DNA of 64,000 nucleotides from Gemmatimonadota bacterium (lineage in GTDB: Bacteria; Gemmatimonadota; Gemmatimonadetes; Gemmatimonadales; GWC2-71-9): contig JBDHJM010000007.1 in NCBI GenBank assembly GCA_039586895.1, positions 11,263 to 75,262 on the forward strand, written 5' to 3'. Below the pieces are notes generated by a model. That model was not told where the DNA came from. It did not search any database and saw only the letters and a program-made list of their open reading frames with translations. The position numbers and the translations under genes are program-made. Below, piece by piece: positions 1 to 7,923 of the stretch (positions within the stretch are counted from its first letter, which is position 1; each line of letters begins with the position of its first letter).

Positions 1-1296
1 GACACCGCGCTCCACGGCCTCCTTGGCCAGGGCCGCCGCCGCGGCGTATCCGATGCGGGGGGCCAGGGCGGTGACGATGGCAGGGCTCAGCTCCAGCCAG
101 CGGGCGGTCTGCTCCTCGTCGGGCTCGATCCCGGCGACGCAGCGCTCGGCCAGGACCCTGCTCGCGCTGGTGAGTATCTCCGTGGCGAAGAACAGGTTCT
201 GGGCGATCACGGGCATCATCACGTTGAGCTCGAGCTGACCCGCCTCCGCCGCGGCGGCCACCGTCGCGTCGTTACCCATGACCTGGTAGCAGACCATGTT
301 CACCATCTCGGCGATCACCGGGTTGACCTTCCCGGGCATGATGCTCGAGCCTGGCTGCACCGCCGGCAGGCGGATCTCGGCCAGTCCGGTGCGGGGACCC
401 GACGCCAGCAGCCGGAGGTCGCTGGCGATCTTGCTCAGGTCCACAGCGTAAGCGCGCAGCGCGCCGCTGAACGCCACCTGATCGCCCATGGACTGCATCA
501 GCTGCACCCGGTCCTGCCCCTCACGCAGCTCCAGGCCGCTCACCACCGCGAGCTGCTGCACGATGAGCGCCGGGTACTCAGGCTCCACGTTGAGCCCGGT
601 GCCCACTGCCGACCCGCCGATGCCGAGCTCGCGCAGCGCGGCGGCGGCGGCCGCAACGCGCGCGCGGTGGCGCTCCACCGTGTGGCCGTACGCGGTGAAC
701 TCCTGGCCCAGCCGGATGGGAGTCGCGTCCTGCAGATGGGTGCGGCCCGCCTTCACAAGCCCGTCGAAGGCACTGCCGCGCTCGAGCAGCGCCTCGGCCA
801 GCAGGGCCAGCGCCTCGTCCAGCGCCGGCAGCAGCGCGAGTGCTCCCAGCCTGATGGCCGTGGGGATGGTGTCGTTGGTGCTCTGCGCCATGTTCACGTG
901 GTCGTTGGGATGAACCGGCGCGTACTCTCCGCGCTTCCCGCCGAGCAGCTCATTGGCGCGGTTCGCGAGCACCTCGTTGACGTTCATGTTGTGGCTGGTG
1001 CCAGCTCCCGCTTGGTAGGGGTCCACCACGAACTGGTCGCGGTGCTGCCCCGCGAGGACCTCGTCGGCGGCGGCCACGATCGCGTCGGCCAGCTCGGCGT
1101 CGAGCCGTCCGGTCTCCCGGTGCACCAGTGCCGCGGAGCGCTTGATCCAGACCATCGCGTCCACGAACACGGGCAGCGGCATGAGACCCGAGATTGGGAA
1201 GTTGTGCCGCGCACGCTCCGTCTGAATGCCCCACAGCGCCCACGCCGGCACCGGCAGCTCGCCCAGTGGATCCTGCTCCAAACGAGTCTCGTTCAC
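1..1296 (-). CDS. aspA: aspartate ammonia-lyase (class II fumarase/aspartase family); C-terminus cut by window edge
   Basis: Reverse-strand translation from GTG at 1296 reads VNETRLEQDPLGE...QSTNDTIPTA...GRTHLQDATPIRLGQEF...GSSIMPGKVNPVIAEM (lyase-1 signature). QSTND and KVNPV favour aspartase over fumarase. It is absent from the ORF track because no stop lies in the window. Confidence 0.85.
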   Translation of the reverse strand, partial: MNETRLEQDPLGELPVPAWALWGIQTERARHNFPISGLMPLPVFVDAMVWIKRSAALVHRETGRLDAELADAIVAAADEVLAGQHRDQFVVDPYQAGAGTSHNMNVNEVLANRANELLGGKRGEYAPVHPNDHVNMAQSTNDTIPTAIRLGALALLPALDEALALLAEALLERGSAFDGLVKAGRTHLQDATPIRLGQEFTAYGHTVERHRARVAAAAAALRELGIGGSAVGTGLNVEPEYPALIVQQLAVVSGLELREGQDRVQLMQSMGDQVAFSGALRAYAVDLSKIASDLRLLASGPRTGLAEIRLPAVQPGSSIMPGKVNPVIAEMVNMVCYQVMGNDATVAAAAEAGQLELNVMMPVIAQNLFFATEILTSASRVLAERCVAGIEPDEEQTARWLELSPAIVTALAPRIGYAAAAALAKEAVERGV

Positions 1297-1397
1297 GTGC
1301 TCACCGCCTTCGGTCAATCCGGCGTCGGTATCGAGCCAGGAATCCGTCACGGCCGGATCGCATCAAGGGAAACACGCCGCGGTACCGAGTCGTGCCT

Positions 1398-1958
1398 TCA
1401 CCGCGTCACCTCCACCCGCAGCGCGTCGTTGAAGCGATTGAAGTAAGCGAACAAGCCGGCCACCAGCGTGATCTCAACGATCTCCCCTTCGTCCCAGTGA
1501 GCCGCCAGCTCGCCGTACGCCTCCTCGCTCACCGCGTGCCCGCTCTGGTTCACCAGCTCTGCGTGGCGCAGGGCGGCGAGCCATCCCGGCTCCATGCCGA
1601 CGAGGGATCCCGCGACATCGGAAGCCTCCTCGGGACTCTCCGCGCGCACCGCGGCGATCCACTCCTCGCGTGCTCCCAGCCGCCTCGCCAAGGCGGTGTG
1701 CGAAGCCAGTCAGTAGCGGCACCGGTTGATGGACGACACCCGCACCGAGATCAGCTCCTTGAGCAGGGGCGGTACCTCGCCCTCGGTCATCACGGTGCCG
1801 AAGTGCGCTATGAGCGTGCTGAGGTGCTTGGGCCGCACGGCCACCGTGCGGAACATGTTCGGGATGTTGCCGCGCTCGCGCAGGAACTTGTCGAAGATGC
1901 CGCGGGTCTCGGGTGTCACCTCGTCGGGCGTGCGCGGACGGATGCGGGGCTCGGTCAT
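1398..1958 (-). CDS. AhpD/carboxymuconolactone-decarboxylase-family protein with in-frame TGA (codon 83, 1710..1712), predicted selenocysteine
   Basis: ORF-track fragments 1710..1958 and 1398..1691 share one frame (561 nt = 187 codons). The junction reads INRCRY-[TGA]-LASHTAL, which is CxxCxxxH with TGA in place of the second Cys. Confidence 0.7.
1680..1696 (-). other. candidate SECIS-like hairpin downstream of UGA 1712..1710
   Basis: The mRNA sense reads CCGCC-UUGGCGA-GGCGG and begins 13 nt after the UGA. Flanking GCU/AGC could extend the stem. Judged by eye only. Confidence 0.3.
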
Positions 1959-1970
1959 GACAGTTCGGCC

Positions 1971-2195
1971 TCAGTCGGAGCAGTCGCCGAGGGGATACAC
2001 GAATCCGCAGTTGCGGCACGGGTTCTTGCAGCCGGACGCGCGCAGGGTGACCTCGAATCCACACCGGATGCAGAGATGAAGCGCGCCTGAATGTGTGGCG
2101 CCGCGAAGGCGGGGGTCCCCCTGAGCGAACGTTGGCCACTGCACAGTTCGTGAGGGGGGATCCCCCGCCACGCGGCGCCACATCCCGTCAGTCAA
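1971..2195 (-). CDS. small Cys-rich (zinc-ribbon-like) hypothetical protein
   Basis: The C-terminal half LCIRCGFEVTLRASGCKNPCRNCGFVYPLGDCSD has CxxC...CxxxCxxC spacing and strong GC3 bias. The TTG start overlaps the MBL stop, and an alternative ATG lies 4 codons in. The N-terminal half is weaker. Confidence 0.35.
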   Translation of the reverse strand: MTDGMWRRVAGDPPSRTVQWPTFAQGDPRLRGATHSGALHLCIRCGFEVTLRASGCKNPCRNCGFVYPLGDCSD

Positions 2196-2850
2196 GAGGA
2201 ATGGCTCCCGTAACGAACGGGTTCATGCGGCGCTCCGCGCCAATCGTGGTCTCAGGCCCGTGCCCTGAATAGACCACGGTCTCGTCCGGCAGCGTCATGA
2301 GCTGATCGCGGATGCTGGCCAGCAGAGTGGCCCCGTTGCCGCCGGGCAAATCCACGCGGCCCACCGATCCGGCGAACACCGCGTCACCCACGATGGCCAC
2401 GCCGTGTCCCACGAAGGCCACGCTGCCGGGGCTGTGCCCTGGCACGTGGCGCACCTCGAAGGAGAGCCCGCCCACGGTCATCACGTCACCGTGCGCCAGC
2501 TCGTGCTCGGGGGGCGGGGGCTGCTTGGCCCGCACGCCGAGCCAGGCGCCCTGCTCCTCGACTCCGTCGTACAGTGGCCGGTCGGCGGGGTGCAGGTGCA
2601 CCGGCACGCCGGTCCGCTCCACGACTTCACTCAATCCCAGGATGTGGTCCAGGTGGGCGTGCGTGAGCCACACGGCGCGTGGCGTCAGCCCCTCTGCTTC
2701 GAGGCGCCGCAAGAAGAGGTCGGCCTCCTCACCCGGATCGATGATGACGGCGTCGCCGGCTTCGCGGTCGACCAGGAGAAAGCAGTTCTCCTGGAACACG
2801 CTGTTGGTGAGGCAGATGACCTCAGGGCGAGGCAAGCGCCTCCTGCTCAT
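2188..2850 (-). CDS. MBL-fold metallo-hydrolase (glyoxalase II-like)
   Basis: Motifs seen are THAHLDH, VPGHSPGS and a C-terminal GHG. I chose the internal ATG (MSRRRLPRPEVICL...) rather than the long ORF-track start at 2967. Confidence 0.8.
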   Translation of the reverse strand: MSRRRLPRPEVICLTNSVFQENCFLLVDREAGDAVIIDPGEEADLFLRRLEAEGLTPRAVWLTHAHLDHILGLSEVVERTGVPVHLHPADRPLYDGVEEQGAWLGVRAKQPPPPEHELAHGDVMTVGGLSFEVRHVPGHSPGSVAFVGHGVAIVGDAVFAGSVGRVDLPGGNGATLLASIRDQLMTLPDETVVYSGHGPETTIGAERRMNPFVTGAIPLD

Positions 2851-3904
2851 TGGCCTCCCGGGCCTGGTCGCGCCGCTCTGTGAGGTGCTTCTCGACCGCG
2901 ATTGCCGCGGTGGTCGCATCGCCCACGGCCGTCGTGATCTGCCTGACGAGCTGGACCCTGAGGTCACCGGCGGCGAACAGCCCCTCTATGGACGTCATCA
3001 TATTGCTGTCCGTGACGATGTACCCGCCGGAGTCGTGCTCGAAGTGACCCTTGATGAGGCCGGAGTTGGGCGTGAAGCCTATGAAGATGAACACGCCGCC
3101 CACGTCGAGCTGTGAAGTCTCGCCGGTCTGCGTGTCCTTCAGCTCGAGGTGCGTGACGCCCCTGGGCGCGCCGTGGACCTCCTCCACGACCTTGTTCCAC
3201 ACGACCTCGATCTTGGGGTTGTTGAGCGCCCGCTTCTGCACGATGGGCTTGGCGCGCAGCTCGTCGCGCCGGTGCACGATGTACACCTTCTCCGCGTAGC
3301 GCGTCAGGTAGTCGGCCTCCTCGACGGCCGCGTCGCCGCCGCCCACCACGGCCAAAACCTCGCCCTTGAAGAATGCGCCGTCGCACACGGCACAGTACGA
3401 CACCCCGCGTCCCGCGTACTCCTGCTCTCCGGGCACCCCCAGCTTGCGCGGGGTGCCTCCCGCGGTGAGGATCACGGCCGGGGCGCGGTACGTGACCCCC
3501 TTCTCGGTGACCACGTCGAACTCGCCGTCCTCGCGCTTCGCTATGGACTGCACGGTGTCGGTCACCAGCTCGGCACCGAACTTGAGCGCGTGGTCGGTCA
3601 TCTTCTGTGCCAGCTCGGGTCCCTTGATGCTCTCGAACCCCGGGTAGTCCTCGACGAGCTCCGTATTCAGGATCTCGCCCCCGGGAGCTCCCCGCTCGAG
3701 CAGCAGCGTCTTGAGCATTCCCCGTCCCGAGTACATCGCTGCGCAAAGGCCTGCGGGGCCGCCGCCCACGATGATCACGTCATATGTCTGAACTCGGCTC
3801 TGCTGTTTCTCAGCCACTGGTTCCTCTGCGTGCCGTTGTCCTTCATCCTGGGCCGGGACCCTGCCCGGCCACCCGTTCGCCTCCAGCCCGAGAACGAAGC
3901 GCAC
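2822..3904 (-). CDS. trxB: thioredoxin-disulfide reductase
   Basis: Contains YDVIIVGGGPAGL (FAD site), the redox-active CAVCDG, and VVGGGDAAVEEA (NADPH site). The true start may be the GTG at 3817 (VAEKQQSRVQTYDV) preceded by GAGGAA. Confidence 0.9.
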   Translation of the reverse strand: MRFVLGLEANGWPGRVPAQDEGQRHAEEPVAEKQQSRVQTYDVIIVGGGPAGLCAAMYSGRGMLKTLLLERGAPGGEILNTELVEDYPGFESIKGPELAQKMTDHALKFGAELVTDTVQSIAKREDGEFDVVTEKGVTYRAPAVILTAGGTPRKLGVPGEQEYAGRGVSYCAVCDGAFFKGEVLAVVGGGDAAVEEADYLTRYAEKVYIVHRRDELRAKPIVQKRALNNPKIEVVWNKVVEEVHGAPRGVTHLELKDTQTGETSQLDVGGVFIFIGFTPNSGLIKGHFEHDSGGYIVTDSNMMTSIEGLFAAGDLRVQLVRQITTAVGDATTAAIAVEKHLTERRDQAREANEQEALASP

Positions 3905-3946: not shown

Positions 3947-4387
3947 CTAACGCAGTGTCGCCAGGCTCTGGTCGGGGCCCGGCGCCCCGCGCGCCGCGAA
4001 CTCTACGGTGCCGTCCTGCTTCACCAGCACCACGGTGCGCTGGATCTTCTTCCCGTCGGGCTTGAGCGCACCGAAAGCCGCGATCGCGTTCCGGGTGGGG
4101 TCGCTCAGCAGCGGGAACGGCAGCTTTAGTTTGTTGGCGTACTTGAGGTGGCTGTCCACCCCGGCGAAGTTCACTCCGAAGGGCCGGACGTTGGCTGCTC
4201 TGTAGGTCTCGATCTCATCGCGCACGGCGGAGAGTTGCTTGTTTCAGCCAGGCGTGTTGTTGCCGGGATAGAAGATGAGCAGCACGTGGGACTCATCGAG
4301 CACGTCACGCAGCCTGTAGCGAGTCCCGTCGGACGCCTCCAGCGCGAAGTCCGGTGCGGCGGTGCCGACCGCGATCAAGTCATCCAT
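3947..4387 (-). CDS. peroxiredoxin (AhpC/TSA/Bcp type) with in-frame TGA (codon 48, 4244..4246), predicted selenocysteine
   Basis: Fragments 4244..4447 and 3947..4225 share one frame (441 nt = 147 codons). The junction reads LLIFYPGNNTPG-[TGA]-NKQLSAVRDEIETY, against the Prx consensus FYPxxxTPGC. The ATG at 4387 overlaps the PHP stop by 1 nt, with GGAGG upstream. Confidence 0.7.
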
Positions 4388-5517: not shown

Positions 5518-6861
5518 TCAGGCTACCCCGTCCGTGTAATCCTCGAGGTCGCGCTTCACGTCCGCCATGAACCGGTCGGCGTCGGCTCCGTCCACGATGC
5601 GGTGATCGTACGACAGCGAAAGCATCCCCATCGTGCGGATCGCGATCACGTCCTGGCCGTCTTCGAGCGTCATCACCTTGGGCCGCTTCTCGATGGCGCC
5701 GATGCCCATGATGGCAACCTGGGGCTGGTTGATGATCGGCGCGCCCGCGAACGACCCGAACCCGCCGGGGTTGGTGATGGTGAACGTGCCCTGCTGCACC
5801 TCGTCCGGGTTCAGCCGCTTGGTGCGGGCGCGCTCCGCCAGATCCGCCACGCGCTTGGAGATGCCGAACAGCGACAGCTCGTCGGCGTGCTTCAGCACGG
5901 GGACGATGAGCCCCCAGTCGAGCGCGACCGCGATACCGATGTTGATGTCCTTGCGGTAGATGATCGTGTCGCCGCTCACCGACGAGTTGACCACGCGATG
6001 CCGGCGCAGGTTGTCGGCCACCACCTCGATGATGAACGACAGGTACGTGGGGTTGGCGCCCTTCTCCGCGAAGTCCGCCTTGAGCCGGCGCCGCACCTGC
6101 GATATCGGAGTGAAGTCCACCTCGTAGAAGCTGGTCACGTGCGCCGAGATGCGGCGCGAGACGACCATGTGATCCGCGGTGAGCTTGCGGATGCGGCTCA
6201 TCGGCTGGACCTCGTCGCCGGGCCACGCCTCCACGGTGGGGTGCGCTACGTCTCCCGAAGGCGCGGCCGCGCCGGCGCGTGCCGCCGGTGCCGCCGGGGC
6301 GGCGGCCGCGGCCCCGCCCTCGATGAAGGCCATGATGTCCTTCTTCGTCACCCGCCCGGCGTGACCCGTGCCCTGCACCGAGCCGATGTCCACCCCGTGC
6401 TCTGCTGCGATGCGCCGCACCAGGGGGGTGGAGCGCCGCTTGACCCGCTCGTCCGCGCTCTCTCCCCTGCCGTCGCCGGATGGCTGTGTCGCAGGAGGCG
6501 GGGCGGGAGCTGCTGCTGCCGGAGCCGCTTCGACCTGCGGGGCCGGCGCCGCGGCCGGCGCAGCAGTTGCCGCAGGAGCAGCGGCGGCGGTCGGTGGGGG
6601 CGCGGCCTCTGCTGCGCCCTTCTCGGTCTCGATCACGGCCACCACGGTCTGCACCTCTACGGTCTGCCCCTCTTCGACCTTGATCTCGGTGAGCACACCC
6701 GAGGCCGGTGAGGGAATCTCGGCATCCACCTTGTCGGTGGAGATCTCGAGGATCGCCTCGTCCCGCTTGACCTCTTCACCCACTTGTTTCAGCCAGCGGG
6801 AGACCGTCCCCTCGGCGATCGACTCTCCCATCTGCGGCATGATTACATCTACACGCGCCAT
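5518..6861 (-). CDS. 2-oxoacid dehydrogenase E2 (dihydrolipoamide acyltransferase)
   Basis: Has a lipoyl domain (EISTDKVDAEIPSP), an Ala/Pro linker, a subunit-binding domain (PLVRRIAAEHGVD) and the catalytic SYDHRIVDGADA. AGGAG lies upstream of the ATG. Confidence 0.9.
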   Translation of the reverse strand: MARVDVIMPQMGESIAEGTVSRWLKQVGEEVKRDEAILEISTDKVDAEIPSPASGVLTEIKVEEGQTVEVQTVVAVIETEKGAAEAAPPPTAAAAPAATAAPAAAPAPQVEAAPAAAAPAPPPATQPSGDGRGESADERVKRRSTPLVRRIAAEHGVDIGSVQGTGHAGRVTKKDIMAFIEGGAAAAAPAAPAARAGAAAPSGDVAHPTVEAWPGDEVQPMSRIRKLTADHMVVSRRISAHVTSFYEVDFTPISQVRRRLKADFAEKGANPTYLSFIIEVVADNLRRHRVVNSSVSGDTIIYRKDINIGIAVALDWGLIVPVLKHADELSLFGISKRVADLAERARTKRLNPDEVQQGTFTITNPGGFGSFAGAPIINQPQVAIMGIGAIEKRPKVMTLEDGQDVIAIRTMGMLSLSYDHRIVDGADADRFMADVKRDLEDYTDGVA

Positions 6862-6945: not shown

Positions 6946-7923
6946 CTAGTACACCAGCAGCTGCCGTGCGGCCCGCACGATGTCGTCGGTCTGCGGCAGC
7001 ACGAAATCCTCGAGTGGCGCGGCATACGGGATCGGGGTGTCCTCTGCCGTCACGCGCAGGATCGGCCCGTCCAGCCACTCGAAGGCCTGCTCGTTCACGC
7101 GGGCCGCGATCTCCCCGGCCACGCCTCCCGTGCGGGTGTCCTCGTGCGCTACCAGCAGCCTGCTGGTCTTGCGCACCGATTCGACGATCGCCGCGTCGTC
7201 CATCGGAAGCAGCGTGCGGAGGTCGATCACCTCCACCGACGCGCCCTCGCCCTCGAGCACCGCGGCGGCCTCGAGCGCCTTCCACACGGTGGCCGACCAG
7301 CTCACGATGGTCAGGTCGCTTCCCTCACGCGCGATCCGGGCGCTGCCGATGGGAGTGAGTACGTCCTCTCCTTCCGGCAGCTCCTCCTTCACGCGGCGGT
7401 ACAGGTACTTGTGCTCGAAGTAGATGACCGGGTCGGGATCGCGCACCGCGGCCTTGATGAGCCCCTTCGCGTCCCGCGCCGTTGCCGGACACACCAGCTT
7501 GAGTCCCGGCGTGTGGAAAAAGGCGGCCTCGGGAACCTGGGAGTGGAACGGTCCGCCCCGCACGTACCCGCCGGCCGGGCCCCGCACCACCATGGACGAG
7601 TCCAGTCCGGCTCGGTAGCGCGCCGTCGCCACGTAGTTGGTGAGGATGTCGTAGGCGCACGAGATGAAGTCGATGAACTGCATCTCGACTACCGGGAGCA
7701 GCCCCATGTGCGCCGCGCCCGCTGCCGCTCCCACCACGGCCGTCTCGGATATGGGCGTGTCGATGACGCGCCCGTCGCCGAAGCGGTCGCGGAAGCCGGC
7801 GGTGAGCTTGAAGGCGCCGCCGTACAAACCGATGTCCTCACCCAGGAGGAGGACGCGCTCGTCGCGCTCCATCTCCTCCCAGAGGCCCTCCCGCAGGGCC
7901 TCGATGTAGGTCAGCTCAGGCAT
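6946..7923 (-). CDS. 2-oxoacid dehydrogenase E1 component, beta subunit
   Basis: MPELTYIEALREGLWEEMERDERVLLLGEDIG...GRVIDTPISE is a typical transketolase-like pyrimidine-binding/C-terminal E1-beta. Confidence 0.9.
   Translation of the reverse strand: MPELTYIEALREGLWEEMERDERVLLLGEDIGLYGGAFKLTAGFRDRFGDGRVIDTPISETAVVGAAAGAAHMGLLPVVEMQFIDFISCAYDILTNYVATARYRAGLDSSMVVRGPAGGYVRGGPFHSQVPEAAFFHTPGLKLVCPATARDAKGLIKAAVRDPDPVIYFEHKYLYRRVKEELPEGEDVLTPIGSARIAREGSDLTIVSWSATVWKALEAAAVLEGEGASVEVIDLRTLLPMDDAAIVESVRKTSRLLVAHEDTRTGGVAGEIAARVNEQAFEWLDGPILRVTAEDTPIPYAAPLEDFVLPQTDDIVRAARQLLVY

What the first reader, a model, noticed from the sequence alone, without database searches (positions are those of the whole stretch)
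1398..1958. AhpD/CMD-family gene with TGA replacing the second Cys of CxxCxxxH (second predicted selenoprotein)
Fragments 1710..1958 and 1398..1691 share one frame (561 nt = 187 codons). The only interruption is TGA at 1710..1712. The junction reads ...RVSSINRCRY-[TGA]-LASHTALARRLGAREEW, that is C-R-Y-[TGA]-L-A-S-H. This reproduces the AhpD active-site pattern Cys-x-x-Cys-x-x-x-His with UGA at the second Cys. A GC-rich hairpin (CCGCC UUGGCGA GGCGG, 1696..1680 in mRNA sense) starts 13 nt after the UGA. That is where bacterial SECIS elements sit. AhpD-like proteins are a reported Sec-containing family.
Basis: partly seen in the sequence, partly recalled or inferred. Interest (0 to 1): 0.75.

Follow-up and report, generated by a model that had tools for sequence, protein, structure and literature searches.

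The report
AhpD-like selenoprotein gene with SECIS hairpin

Summary
Minus strand 1958..1398 is one 187-codon frame with a single internal TGA (1712..1710) in the motif C-R-Y-[TGA]-L-A-S-H. The CMD/AhpD-core domain runs straight across it.

Comparative data support selenocysteine.
- 71 of 80 related genomic loci (Gemmatimonadota, Acidobacteriota, Chloroflexota, Clostridia) have TGA at this column. 8 have TGC and 1 is unresolved.
- The frame after the TGA is under the same purifying selection as the frame before it.
- A 7-bp hairpin with a GGC loop starts 13 nt after the UGA. All 7 pairs form in 60 of 63 distinct TGA forms, and 6 of the 7 pairs show compensatory changes.
- Ten Cys orthologs, three of them syntenic, form only 0–4 of these pairs.
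- Resampling synonymous codons gives about 3.6 pairs, so the peptide sequence does not explain the hairpin.
- A PrxQ/BCP-like gene 2.3 kb upstream also has TGA at its peroxidatic Cys.

No selA, selB, selD or tRNA-Sec lies in the window. The genome-level machinery check stays open.

The family (AhpD-like, CxxU) has been a published selenoprotein family since 2005. This gene is a new, mis-called member of a known kind, so interest is low to moderate.

The parts
1398..1958 (-). AhpD-like / CMD-family selenoprotein gene: 186 residues with Sec (U) at residue 83, ATG start at 1958, and its own terminator TGA at 1400..1398
   Evidence: Single frame with one internal TGA. PF02627 spans residues 43-106. 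TIGR00778 is above its cutoff and TIGR01926 scores 70 bits. Orthologs are 55-77% identical over the full length.
1710..1712 (-). In-frame UGA, predicted Sec-83, at the second position of the C-R-Y-U (CxxU) redox motif
   Evidence: TGA at the same column in 71 of 80 genomic relatives, TGC in 8. It aligns with the second Cys of CxxC in homologs and PDB structures.
1719..1721 (-). Cys-80 codon, the first (resolving) Cys of the CxxU motif
   Evidence: Translation. This column is less conserved than the Sec column; it is T or S in several Cys-form homologs.
1698..1700 (-). His-87 codon of the CxxUxxxH motif. S86 and H87 are invariant in the family.
   Evidence: Invariant columns S86 and H87 in alignments A1 and A3.
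1680..1696 (-). Predicted bacterial SECIS hairpin: 7-bp stem (1696..1690 with 1686..1680) and GGC triloop (1689..1687), starting 13 nt after the UGA
   Evidence: RNAalifold predicts exactly this helix. Cells are 98.4% paired, 6 of 7 pairs show compensatory changes, and there are 62 double-change cells against 17 in shuffles (0 of 500 shuffles reach this). All 7 pairs form in 60 of 63 Sec forms against 0-4 in 10 Cys forms (p = 8e-14). Synonymous resampling gives 3.6 pairs. The loop is GGC in 60 of 63.
3947..4387 (-). Companion PrxQ/BCP-like peroxiredoxin gene with in-frame TGA at 4246..4244 (FYPGNNTPG-U-NKQL; Sec-48 at the peroxidatic Cys position)
   Evidence: Translation. With C in place of U it matches the full AhpC-TSA profile, E = 3e-30, and PrxQ/BCP NCBIfam models. 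The TGA is conserved in all 10 close relatives that carry the gene. Gene callers split it into 47 + 92 aa.
2822..3718 (-). Thioredoxin-disulfide reductase (TrxB) with a CAVCDG redox motif. The true start is probably upstream of 3718, since the ORF extends to 3904.
   Evidence: TIGR01292, 341.7 bits against a cutoff of 343.45, with the profile entered at position 24. Sequence. Pyr_redox_2, E = 5e-48.
2188..2835 (-). MBL-fold, GloB-like hydrolase gene between trxB and the AhpD-like gene
   Evidence: PF00753, E = 4e-32. TIGR03413 GSH_gloB, 96 bits, below its cutoff. Syntenic in all Gemmatimonadota loci that keep enough upstream flank.
1..1350 (-). Class II fumarase (FumC) directly downstream, running off the left end of the window
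   Evidence: PF00206, E = 2e-88, plus FumaraseC_C. Syntenic.
2094..2182 (.). Imperfect palindrome (37-nt arms, 76% complementary) in the 229-nt spacer between the MBL gene's stop and the AhpD-like gene's start. Role unknown; possibly a terminator or regulatory site.
   Evidence: the repeat finder I1. Single copy in the window.

Best explanation
The gene at 1958..1398 (minus strand) encodes a 186-residue AhpD-like, "peroxidase-related" thiol/selenol oxidoreductase. The UGA at codon 83 is decoded as selenocysteine, not read as a stop.

Decoding (inferred from the established bacterial mechanism):
- The mRNA hairpin at 1696..1680 lies inside the coding sequence, 13 nt after the UGA. It has a 7-bp stem and a GGC apical loop and acts as a bacterial SECIS element.
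- It would recruit SelB·GTP·Sec-tRNA(Sec) to the ribosome when the UGA is in the A site.
- The gene's own terminal UGA (1400..1398) has no such hairpin and terminates translation.

Chemistry (inferred from the AhpD family):
- Sec-83 replaces the better-conserved, nucleophilic second Cys of the C-x-x-C-x-x-x-H active site.
- Its selenolate attacks an oxidised substrate, either a peroxide or a sulfenic/selenenic acid or disulfide on a partner protein.
- A Cys80–Sec83 selenenylsulfide then forms and is re-reduced by a thiol system.

Context (shown): the gene sits in a same-strand cluster of PrxQ/BCP-like peroxiredoxin (also UGA at its peroxidatic Cys), TrxB, GloB-like MBL hydrolase, AhpD-like (Sec), FumC and Rrf2. 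The most likely role is therefore in a thioredoxin-reductase-driven peroxide or redox-stress defence module, possibly as reductant or partner of the adjacent selenoperoxiredoxin.

What is shown: the frame, the domain, the Sec/Cys column, the covarying hairpin specific to TGA forms, the synteny and the fold.
What is inferred: actual Sec insertion, the partner proteins and the substrate.
For: 1. One frame, one internal TGA, and the CMD/AhpD-core domain spans it.
2. Database "proteins" end exactly at ...C-R-Y or start exactly at (M)-[AS]-SHTALA. This is the signature of gene callers splitting a gene at a conserved TGA. The DNA confirms TGA in L001-L008.
3. Of 80 GTDB species-representative loci, 71 have TGA, 8 have TGC and 1 is unresolved. 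They span Gemmatimonadota, Terriglobia/Acidobacteriota, Ktedonobacterales/Chloroflexia, Clostridia and a Proteobacteria MAG.
4. Cys forms are true orthologs: they occupy the same TrxB, MBL, CMD, FumC, Rrf2 slot.
5. Substitutions downstream of the TGA concentrate at third codon positions (for example 10/10/28), as they do upstream (13/8/26).
6. SECIS: RNAalifold recovers the 7-bp helix, with 6 of 7 pairs showing compensatory double changes. Cells are 98.4% paired, against 36-63% when the partner is slid; there are 62 double-change cells against 17 ± 2.8 in shuffles (0 of 500). The compensatory changes are non-synonymous (TALARR, TVLARQ, TALAKQ, TALAAR), so the peptide bends to keep the RNA pairing.
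7. Controls: 10 Cys forms pair at 0-4 of the 7 positions (mean 2.4 against 6.89; p = 8e-14). Synonymous resampling gives a mean of 3.6 and a maximum of 4.0. The loop is GGC in 60 of 63.
8. The codon after the TGA is mostly CTG, CTC, AAG or AGG, none of which is a start codon.
9. A second gene in the cluster (PrxQ-like) has TGA at its catalytic Cys in the window and in all 10 close relatives that carry it.
10. A model of the syntenic Cys ortholog P0003 (pLDDT 95) matches AhpD-like / peroxidase-related structures 6K40, 2PRR, 2OYO and 3C1L with TM about 0.85. PDB sequence alignments put the Sec on the second Cys of CxYCxxSH.
11. Literature: AhpD-like CxxU is a recognised selenoprotein family, and neighbouring Prx-like and AhpD-like selenoprotein genes have been noted (PMC1088965, PMC2398784, PMC1794560, PMC13188914).
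Against: - No selA, selB or selD homolog (all tblastn E > 0.3) and no tRNA-Sec in the 64-kb window, and none in any fetched flank. Sec machinery in this genome is therefore unverified.
- No Rfam family matches the hairpin, even at E ≤ 10.
- On the single sequence the fold is not more stable than shuffles.
- TIGR01926, the NCBIfam model that the 2026 review attaches to AhpD-like selenoproteins, scores 70.1 bits, below its 81.8-bit cutoff.
- There is no experimental evidence for selenium incorporation. The biochemical role, partner and substrate are inferred only from family membership and gene neighbourhood, and that neighbourhood is conserved only within Gemmatimonadota.
Confidence: 0.92

Rival explanations
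1. The TGA is a real stop. The locus is a pseudogene, an assembly or sequencing error, or a recent nonsense mutation in a Cys-type AhpD-like gene.
For: Gene callers treat it this way, as 82-aa and 97/103-aa fragments. No Sec machinery is seen in the window.
Against: The same TGA is present in independent assemblies of the same population (L092, L093) and in 71 of 80 species-level relatives from several phyla. The downstream frame is under purifying selection equal to the upstream frame. The TGA co-occurs with a covarying hairpin that Cys forms lack.
Confidence: 0.01
2. A genuinely split gene. Translation stops at the UGA and a second polypeptide is started just downstream, giving two chains that assemble into one AhpD-like fold. 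The hairpin would serve coupling or re-initiation.
For: In a few lineages the codon after the TGA is ATG (5 of 63) or TTG (1 of 63), so callers can start a second ORF directly after the stop (L001, L008).
Against: In most lineages the next codon is CTG, CTC, CTA, CTT, ATC, AAG or AGG, which are not start codons. In the window the first possible start is TTG at 1691, which would delete the invariant S86-H87. The break falls inside the CxxC active-site helix, exactly on the catalytic Cys column. A split there would remove the catalytic residue from both chains.
Confidence: 0.02
3. The UGA is read through, but not as selenocysteine. It could be decoded as Trp, Cys or Gly by near-cognate or suppressor decoding, or by a reassigned code, with the hairpin acting as a general read-through stimulator.
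For: One database homolog (P0014) has Trp (CEYW-LDSHT) at this column, one nucleotide away from TGA. Sec machinery was not demonstrated here.
Against: The gene uses TGA as its own terminator, and TGA ends many long high-GC3 ORFs in the window, so there is no code reassignment. The column is a catalytic Cys in homologs, where only Sec is a functional replacement. The hairpin has the position and the G-containing small loop typical of SelB-binding SECIS elements (PMC1088965). The same family is an accepted selenoprotein family in proven Sec-decoding bacteria such as Alkaliphilus (PMC1794560).
Confidence: 0.04

Closest known systems
AhpD-like selenoprotein family (COG2128/YciW, TIGR01926-type, CxxU motif), described from the Sargasso Sea (2005) and GOS (2008) metagenomes and from Alkaliphilus (PMC1088965, PMC2398784, PMC1794560, PMC13188914)
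   Same: CMD/AhpD-core domain. Sec at the second position of CxxC (CxxU). Widespread Cys homologs. A stem-loop with a small G-containing apical loop directly after the UGA. Occasional adjacency to a Prx-type selenoprotein gene.
   Different: The host lineage here is Gemmatimonadota, and no paper in the searchable library links that phylum to selenoproteins. The protein scores 70.1 bits on TIGR01926, below the 81.8-bit cutoff, so it may be a sister subfamily. I could not compare it directly with the published exemplar sequences.
Solved AhpD-like / "uncharacterized peroxidase-related" proteins: D. radiodurans AhpD (6K40), 2PRR, 2OYO, 2PFX, 3C1L, S. pneumoniae AhpD (6E8L)
   Same: Same all-helical fold: the model of the Cys ortholog gives TM 0.80-0.86. 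Same C-x-Y-C-x-x-S-H motif, aligned with the Sec column.
   Different: All the solved proteins use Cys, not Sec. Sequence identity is only 19-26%.
Mycobacterium tuberculosis AhpD (1KNC, 1GU9), the classical AhpC reductant reduced by lipoamide on DlaT/SucB
   Same: CxxCxxxH active-site logic and a peroxiredoxin partner encoded nearby. A SucB_Actino-type E2 (428 bits) lies about 3.5 kb upstream on the same strand.
   Different: Not the same subfamily. TIGR00777 scores 22 bits against a cutoff of 192, and structural similarity is weak (TM about 0.5, Foldseek E 0.1-0.3). The adjacent flavoprotein is TrxB, not Lpd. A link to the E2 is speculation.
Escherichia coli fdhF-type bacterial SECIS element
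   Same: A hairpin inside the coding region just 3' of the UGA, with G residues in a small apical loop. The loop G's sit at positions +24 and +25 counting the U of UGA as 1, against about +22 and +23 in fdhF (the fdhF numbers are from my memory, not tested here).
   Different: A 7-bp perfect stem with a 3-nt GGC loop and no conserved bulged U. The lower stem I proposed is not supported. No Rfam model matches.
Bmp8 debrominase (6OHI, 6OHJ), a CMD-fold thiol-dependent reductive dehalogenase
   Same: Same fold (TM about 0.80) and a sequence hit at E = 9e-5. It shows that this fold can do Cys-based reductive chemistry other than peroxide reduction.
   Different: Different context and only 21% identity. 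Nothing in the neighbourhood suggests halogenated substrates.

Membership tests
AhpD-like (CxxU) bacterial selenoprotein family | CMD / AhpD-core domain | tested here: met
   PF02627, 62 bits (cutoff 23), spanning residues 43-106 across the TGA. TIGR00778 ahpD_dom, 57.3 bits (cutoff 27.8).
AhpD-like (CxxU) bacterial selenoprotein family | Score above the curated cutoff of TIGR01926 (peroxid_rel), the model the 2026 review attaches to this family | tested here: not met
   70.1 bits against a cutoff of 81.8, although the alignment is full-length (residues 5-182 on profile positions 2-173). The gene is therefore filed as AhpD-like in the broad sense, possibly a sister subfamily.
AhpD-like (CxxU) bacterial selenoprotein family | In-frame UGA aligned with a conserved Cys in homologs (Sec/Cys pair), at the second Cys of CxxC | tested here: met
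   The column is at least 90% Cys in Cys-form homologs. TGA in 71 and TGC in 8 of 80 genomic loci. It aligns with the second Cys in 2OUW, 2PFX and 2OYO.
AhpD-like (CxxU) bacterial selenoprotein family | Reading frame conserved downstream of the UGA | tested here: met
   Invariant S86, H87, A91, G95 and N177 after the UGA. Third-position-biased substitutions downstream, the same as upstream.
AhpD-like (CxxU) bacterial selenoprotein family | Stem-loop immediately 3' of the UGA with a small apical loop containing G (bacterial SECIS features as stated in PMC1088965) | tested here: met
   7-bp stem 13 nt after the UGA. GGC loop in 60 of 63. Covariation in 6 of 7 pairs. Absent from Cys orthologs.
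AhpD-like (CxxU) bacterial selenoprotein family | Host genome encodes selA, selB, selC (tRNA-Sec) and selD | not testable with these tools
   Not in the 64-kb window or in the fetched flanks. The rest of the genome could not be read. A database search with E. coli SelA listed only enterobacterial or unnamed hits among the 120 shown.
AhpD-like (CxxU) bacterial selenoprotein family | Selenium actually incorporated at the UGA position | not testable with these tools
   Needs 75Se labelling or mass spectrometry.
AhpD-like / peroxidase-related structural family (6K40, 2PRR, 2OYO type) | All-helical AhpD-like fold of about 180 residues | tested here: met
   Tested on the syntenic Cys ortholog P0003 (60% identical), not on the window protein itself. 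pLDDT 95.2; TM 0.80-0.86 to 6K40, 2PRR, 2OYO and 3C1L.
Classical AhpD (M. tuberculosis type, TIGR00777) | Match to the AhpD equivalog-level model and fold | tested here: not met
   TIGR00777, 22.2 bits against a cutoff of 191.95. TM about 0.5 and E 0.1-0.3 to 1GU9 and 1KNC.
Gamma-carboxymuconolactone decarboxylase (the enzyme that gives Pfam CMD its name) | Match to a decarboxylase-specific model | tested here: not met
   No PcaC-type model is among the NCBIfam hits at E ≤ 0.01. All hits are AhpD- or peroxidase-related.
Rfam-curated SECIS families | Covariance-model match | tested here: not met
   No match at gathering thresholds over the whole window, and none at E ≤ 10 in 1300..2100. This lowers the claim 'it is a member of a curated Rfam family', not the claim 'it works as a bacterial SECIS'.

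The most novel reading that the evidence does not exclude
In Gemmatimonadota the gene is part of a dedicated two-selenoprotein peroxide-defence operon: PrxQ(U), TrxB, GloB-like hydrolase and AhpD-like(U). In this reading the AhpD-like selenoprotein is the specific reductant of the selenoperoxiredoxin, making a selenium-based analogue of the mycobacterial AhpC/AhpD couple. More broadly, the Sec form, not the Cys form, would be the default state of this subfamily in soil and sediment phyla (Gemmatimonadota, Acidobacteriota, Chloroflexota) that are not usually thought of as selenoprotein users. The almost phylum-independent SECIS (stem-UUGGCAA-stem) hints at horizontal spread of the gene together with its SECIS.
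Probability: 0.25. Interest if true: 0.45.

Novelty: new member of a known kind. Interest (0 to 1): 0.25.

Why it matters
For annotation, this gene and its PrxQ-like neighbour are split into meaningless fragments (82 + 97/103 aa and 47 + 92 aa) in public MAG and metagenome annotations. The same error is present in at least 71 species-representative genomes. Correcting it restores two catalytic selenoproteins.

For biology, it indicates that this Gemmatimonadota lineage, and many Acidobacteriota and Chloroflexota, decode UGA as Sec and invest selenium in peroxide or redox defence. It also offers a compact and very well conserved SECIS (7-bp stem, GGC loop) with a natural Sec/Cys ortholog series for studying Sec-to-Cys exchange.

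It does not change what is known about how selenoproteins work.

Tried and rejected
- **Extended SECIS.** The single-sequence fold suggested a lower stem (columns 13-20 with 41-47). Pairs 13-15/45-47 are unpaired in most sequences, and pairs 16/44 and 17/43 barely vary, so they carry no covariation signal. Only the 7-bp upper stem is retained.
- **Single-sequence thermodynamics.** Not significant (z = +0.73), so not used as evidence.
- **Rfam.** No match at gathering thresholds or at E ≤ 10.
- **Sec machinery.** tblastn with E. coli K-12 SelA, SelB and SelD (taken from the annotated record) found nothing in the window or in the loci fetched up to that point. ARAGORN found no tRNA-Sec in the window or in 16 loci. 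A database search with E. coli SelA scored only the 8000 candidates sharing most words with the query, and the 120 listed were enterobacterial or unnamed. This was a dead end and used one of three searches.
- **Literature.** Two searches for selenoproteins in Gemmatimonadetes/Gemmatimonadota found nothing relevant.
- **Motif scans.** It was found through the gene calls of the matching metagenome contig.
- **Structure prediction.** The syntenic Cys ortholog was modelled instead.
- **Upstream palindrome.** The idea that 2094..2182 is a dispersed repeat was not supported. It is single-copy in the window.
- **Stop-codon tally.** My count for 'real' genes (TAG 15, TGA 12, TAA 2) rests on a crude GC3 proxy. 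It is used only to show that TGA also terminates ORFs.
Full report
**Observation.** On the minus strand, 1958..1398 is a single 187-codon frame beginning with ATG. Its only internal stop is TGA at 1712..1710 (codon 83), in the context ...SSINRCRY-[TGA]-LASHTALARRLGAREEW. The frame ends with another TGA at 1400..1398. The mechanical ORF list shows the two halves as separate ORFs, 1710..1958 (82 aa) and 1398..1691 (97 aa). By itself this hairpin is not statistically unusual in such GC-rich RNA (z = +0.73 against dinucleotide shuffles). The single-sequence observation is therefore correct but not sufficient.

**What the protein is.** With Cys placed at the TGA, the sequence matches Pfam CMD (PF02627; 62 bits against a cutoff of 23) over residues 43-106, straight across the stop. 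Each half alone matches only marginally. NCBIfam gives the AhpD core domain (TIGR00778; 57 bits against a cutoff of 27.8). It also gives a full-length but sub-threshold match to the 'peroxidase-related enzyme' subfamily TIGR01926 (70.1 against 81.8). Several weaker hits are to models explicitly named as (seleno)proteins. The classical AhpD model TIGR00777 is far below its cutoff. The closest solved structures are AhpD-core / 'uncharacterized peroxidase-related' proteins (2OUW, 2PFX, 2OYO, 3C1L, 2PRR, 6K40; E from 4e-10 to 3e-7). In the three alignments shown (2OUW, 2PFX, 2OYO) the TGA column falls on the second Cys of a C-x-Y-C-x-x-[SA]-H motif. An AlphaFold model of the closest syntenic Cys ortholog (P0003, 60% identical; pLDDT 95) superposes on 6K40, 2PRR, 2OYO and 3C1L with TM 0.80-0.86. 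It superposes on M. tuberculosis AhpD only at TM about 0.5.

**Relatives: the TGA is conserved.** The protein search returned full-length Cys homologs of about 180 aa (55-60% identical, Gemmatimonadales). It also returned many fragments that end exactly at ...C-R-Y or begin exactly at (M)-[AS]-SHTALA. Their DNA shows an in-frame TGA between adjacent called ORFs (82 + 103 aa, 80 + 106 aa) in three diverged lineages. A scan of one genome per GTDB species gave 80 loci. After resolving the loci that my patterns first missed, 71 carry TGA at this column, 8 carry TGC and 1 is unresolved. The TGA forms come from Gemmatimonadota, Terriglobia/Acidobacteriota, Ktedonobacterales/Chloroflexia, Clostridia and a Proteobacteria MAG. 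The 80 loci were chosen for similarity to a Sec-form query, so the proportion is biased towards close relatives. In the protein alignment the Sec column is at least 90% Cys among Cys forms. The first Cys of the CxxC is often Thr or Ser, so the TGA sits on the better-conserved, presumably nucleophilic, residue. Substitutions between the window gene and ten Sec-form orthologs concentrate at third codon positions downstream of the TGA (for example 10/10/28), just as they do upstream (13/8/26). Both halves are therefore translated and under purifying selection.

**The hairpin is a family-wide element specific to TGA forms.** I aligned 63 distinct TGA contexts without gaps.
- RNAalifold predicts one helix: 7 bp at columns 23-29 and 33-39, which is window 1696..1690 with 1686..1680. 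Six of the seven pairs have compensatory double changes.
- For this helix 98.4% of cells are paired, against 36-63% when the 3' partner is slid by 1-3 columns.
- There are 62 double-change cells against 17 ± 2.8 in column shuffles (0 of 500 reach the observed value).
- The variants are CCGCC/GGCGG, CUGUC/GACAG, CUGCU/AGCAG, CCGUC/GACGG and CCGCG/CGCGG. They change the encoded peptide (TALARR, TVLARQ, TALAKQ, TALAAR), so the protein sequence yields to keep the RNA pairing.
- The apical loop is GGC in 60 of 63. Two Chloroflexota sequences keep the register with a GUU loop, and one Clostridia sequence has an off-register hairpin.

Controls:

| Set | n | Stem pairs formed (of 7) |
|---|---|---|
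| Sec (TGA) forms | 63 | mean 6.89; all 7 in 60 sequences |
| Cys (TGC/TGT) orthologs, three in the identical syntenic slot | 10 | 0-4; mean 2.4 (Mann-Whitney p = 8e-14) |
| Synonymous-codon resampling of the Sec forms | 500 runs | mean 3.6; maximum 4.0 |

A lower stem suggested by the single-sequence fold is not supported. [quoted passage not shown] This hairpin meets that description. No Rfam model matches, and bSECISearch was not available.

**Rival readings.**
- A pseudogene or assembly error is excluded by the identical TGA in independent assemblies of the same population and in 71 species.
- A split gene with re-initiation is unlikely. The codon after the TGA is CTG or CTC in 53 of 63 contexts, and AAG or AGG in the additional Chloroflexota loci. 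The first possible start in the window (TTG at 1691) would delete the invariant Ser86-His87. The break would also remove the catalytic residue from both chains.
- Reassignment of TGA is excluded because the gene itself, and many other ORFs in the window, end with TGA.

**Context and likely function.** The window is 99.9% identical over 16.7 kb to a contig of the Gemmatimonadota MAG GCA_039587565.1. The gene's N-terminal fragment is on record in two JGI metagenome contigs. On the same strand the order is:
1. E1-beta and an E2 of the SucB_Actino type.
2. A PHP-domain protein.
3. A PrxQ/BCP-like peroxiredoxin.
4. Thioredoxin reductase (TIGR01292, 342 bits; CAVCDG motif).
5. A GloB-like MBL hydrolase.
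6. The AhpD-like gene.
7. FumC.
8. Rrf2.

The peroxiredoxin reads FYPGNNTPG-[TGA]-NKQL, with TGA (4246..4244) at the peroxidatic Cys. With Cys substituted it matches the full AhpC-TSA profile (E = 3e-30). The TGA is present in all 10 close relatives that have the gene. TrxB, MBL, AhpD-like and FumC are syntenic in all Gemmatimonadota loci that keep enough flank, for Sec and Cys forms alike, and in none of the other phyla. The PHP-Prx module is limited to the closest clade.

The best-supported model is this. The selenolate of Sec-83 acts as the nucleophile of a CxxU redox centre. It forms a selenenylsulfide with Cys-80, which is recycled by the TrxB/thioredoxin system. The AhpD-like protein acts either as a peroxidase itself or as the reductant of the neighbouring selenoperoxiredoxin. 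This functional part is inference from family chemistry and gene neighbourhood.

**What remains open.** The window contains no selA, selB or selD homolog and no tRNA-Sec, and neither do the fetched flanks. I could not read the rest of the genome. An attempt to reach Gemmatimonadota SelA through the protein database listed only enterobacterial or unnamed entries among the 120 hits shown.

**Comparison with what is known, and novelty.** 'AhpD-like protein' with a CXXU motif (COG2128) was reported as a new selenoprotein family from the Sargasso Sea (27 sequences; PMC1088965). It was among the most abundant families in GOS (299 sequences, plus 70 of 'AhpD-like 2', pfam02627; PMC2398784). It was found in Alkaliphilus (PMC1794560). 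It is listed in the 2026 review with TIGR01926 and in BSepDB (PMC13188914, PMC13326102). The GOS paper and the review also note neighbouring Prx-like and AhpD-like selenoprotein genes. The present gene is therefore a new, mis-annotated member of a known kind, in a phylum for which I found no selenoprotein literature. Interest is low to moderate.

Noticed in passing
window 3947..4387 (minus strand); TGA at 4244..4246: PrxQ/BCP-like peroxiredoxin with in-frame TGA at the peroxidatic Cys (FYPGNNTPG-U-NKQL), called as 47 + 92 aa fragments in public data. The TGA and about 35 nt downstream (UGAAAC...CAACUCUCCGCCGUGCGCGAUGAGAU) are conserved in all 10 close Gemmatimonadota relatives that have the gene. 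I did not work out its SECIS structure.
   Followed up: partly
window 2094..2182: Imperfect palindrome (37-nt arms, 76% complementary, 15-nt spacer) filling most of the 229-nt gap between the MBL gene's stop and the AhpD-like gene's start. It is single-copy in the window. It could be a terminator, an operator (an Rrf2 regulator is encoded nearby) or a remnant of a deletion. In the three Cys-form loci examined an LPG_synthase_TM gene occupies this gap.
   Followed up: partly
L094, L095, L096 (Cys forms) compared with the window and L001-L006, L092 (Sec forms); also P0106: In the three Cys-form Gemmatimonadales loci examined, a roughly 290-aa LPG_synthase_TM membrane-protein gene lies between the MBL gene and the AhpD-like gene, overlapping its start in two of them. 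It is absent from the Sec-form loci whose gene calls I saw (window, L001-L006, L092, L093). The database entry P0106 is a fusion-like read-through of such a gene into the N-terminus of a Sec-form AhpD-like gene that ends at ...GCRY.
   Followed up: no
L037 (DATIXG010000109.1): A Cys form (HWNQCHY-C-LNSHT) sits among closely related Sec forms (L022-L042) in the same syntenic slot. Only 4 of the 7 hairpin pairs remain. It is a candidate recent Sec-to-Cys (or Cys-to-Sec) conversion with a decaying SECIS.
   Followed up: no
P0014 (metagenome protein, 182 aa): One homolog has Trp at the Sec/Cys column (NDCEYW-LDSHT). TGG is one substitution from TGA. This may be a real variant, a sequencing error or a caller artefact.
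   Followed up: no
window about 4352 (end of MAG contig JBDHIG010000049.1): The public MAG contig that matches the window at 99.9% identity ends at window position 4352, inside the PrxQ-like selenoprotein gene. The AhpD-like gene therefore lies on a different contig of that MAG, and the two-selenoprotein cluster is broken in the public assembly.
   Followed up: no
L001 3165..5009; L094-L096 downstream of FumC: Downstream of FumC, relatives carry Rrf2 followed by rhodanese or ThiF-rhodanese. One locus (L095) continues with PALP (cysteine-synthase-like) and Prok-JAB genes. This resembles a sulfur-carrier-protein cysteine biosynthesis cluster and hints at a wider sulfur/selenium and redox neighbourhood.
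   Followed up: no
L071, L083 (Chloroflexia/Chloroflexi); L084 (Clostridia): Variant SECIS forms. L071 and L083 keep the same 7-bp register but have a GUU loop in place of GGC. L084 has only 3 of 7 pairs in register and an alternative, larger-loop hairpin (CUGCC-AUAGCAAAAGG-GGCAG).
   Followed up: partly
window 5518..6861 and 6946..7923 (minus strand): An E2 dihydrolipoamide acyltransferase of the actinobacterial SucB/DlaT type (TIGR02927, 428 bits) and an E1-beta gene lie upstream on the same strand. In M. tuberculosis the DlaT lipoyl domain is the reductant of AhpD (from my own knowledge, not tested here). Whether that link applies here is untested.
   Followed up: no
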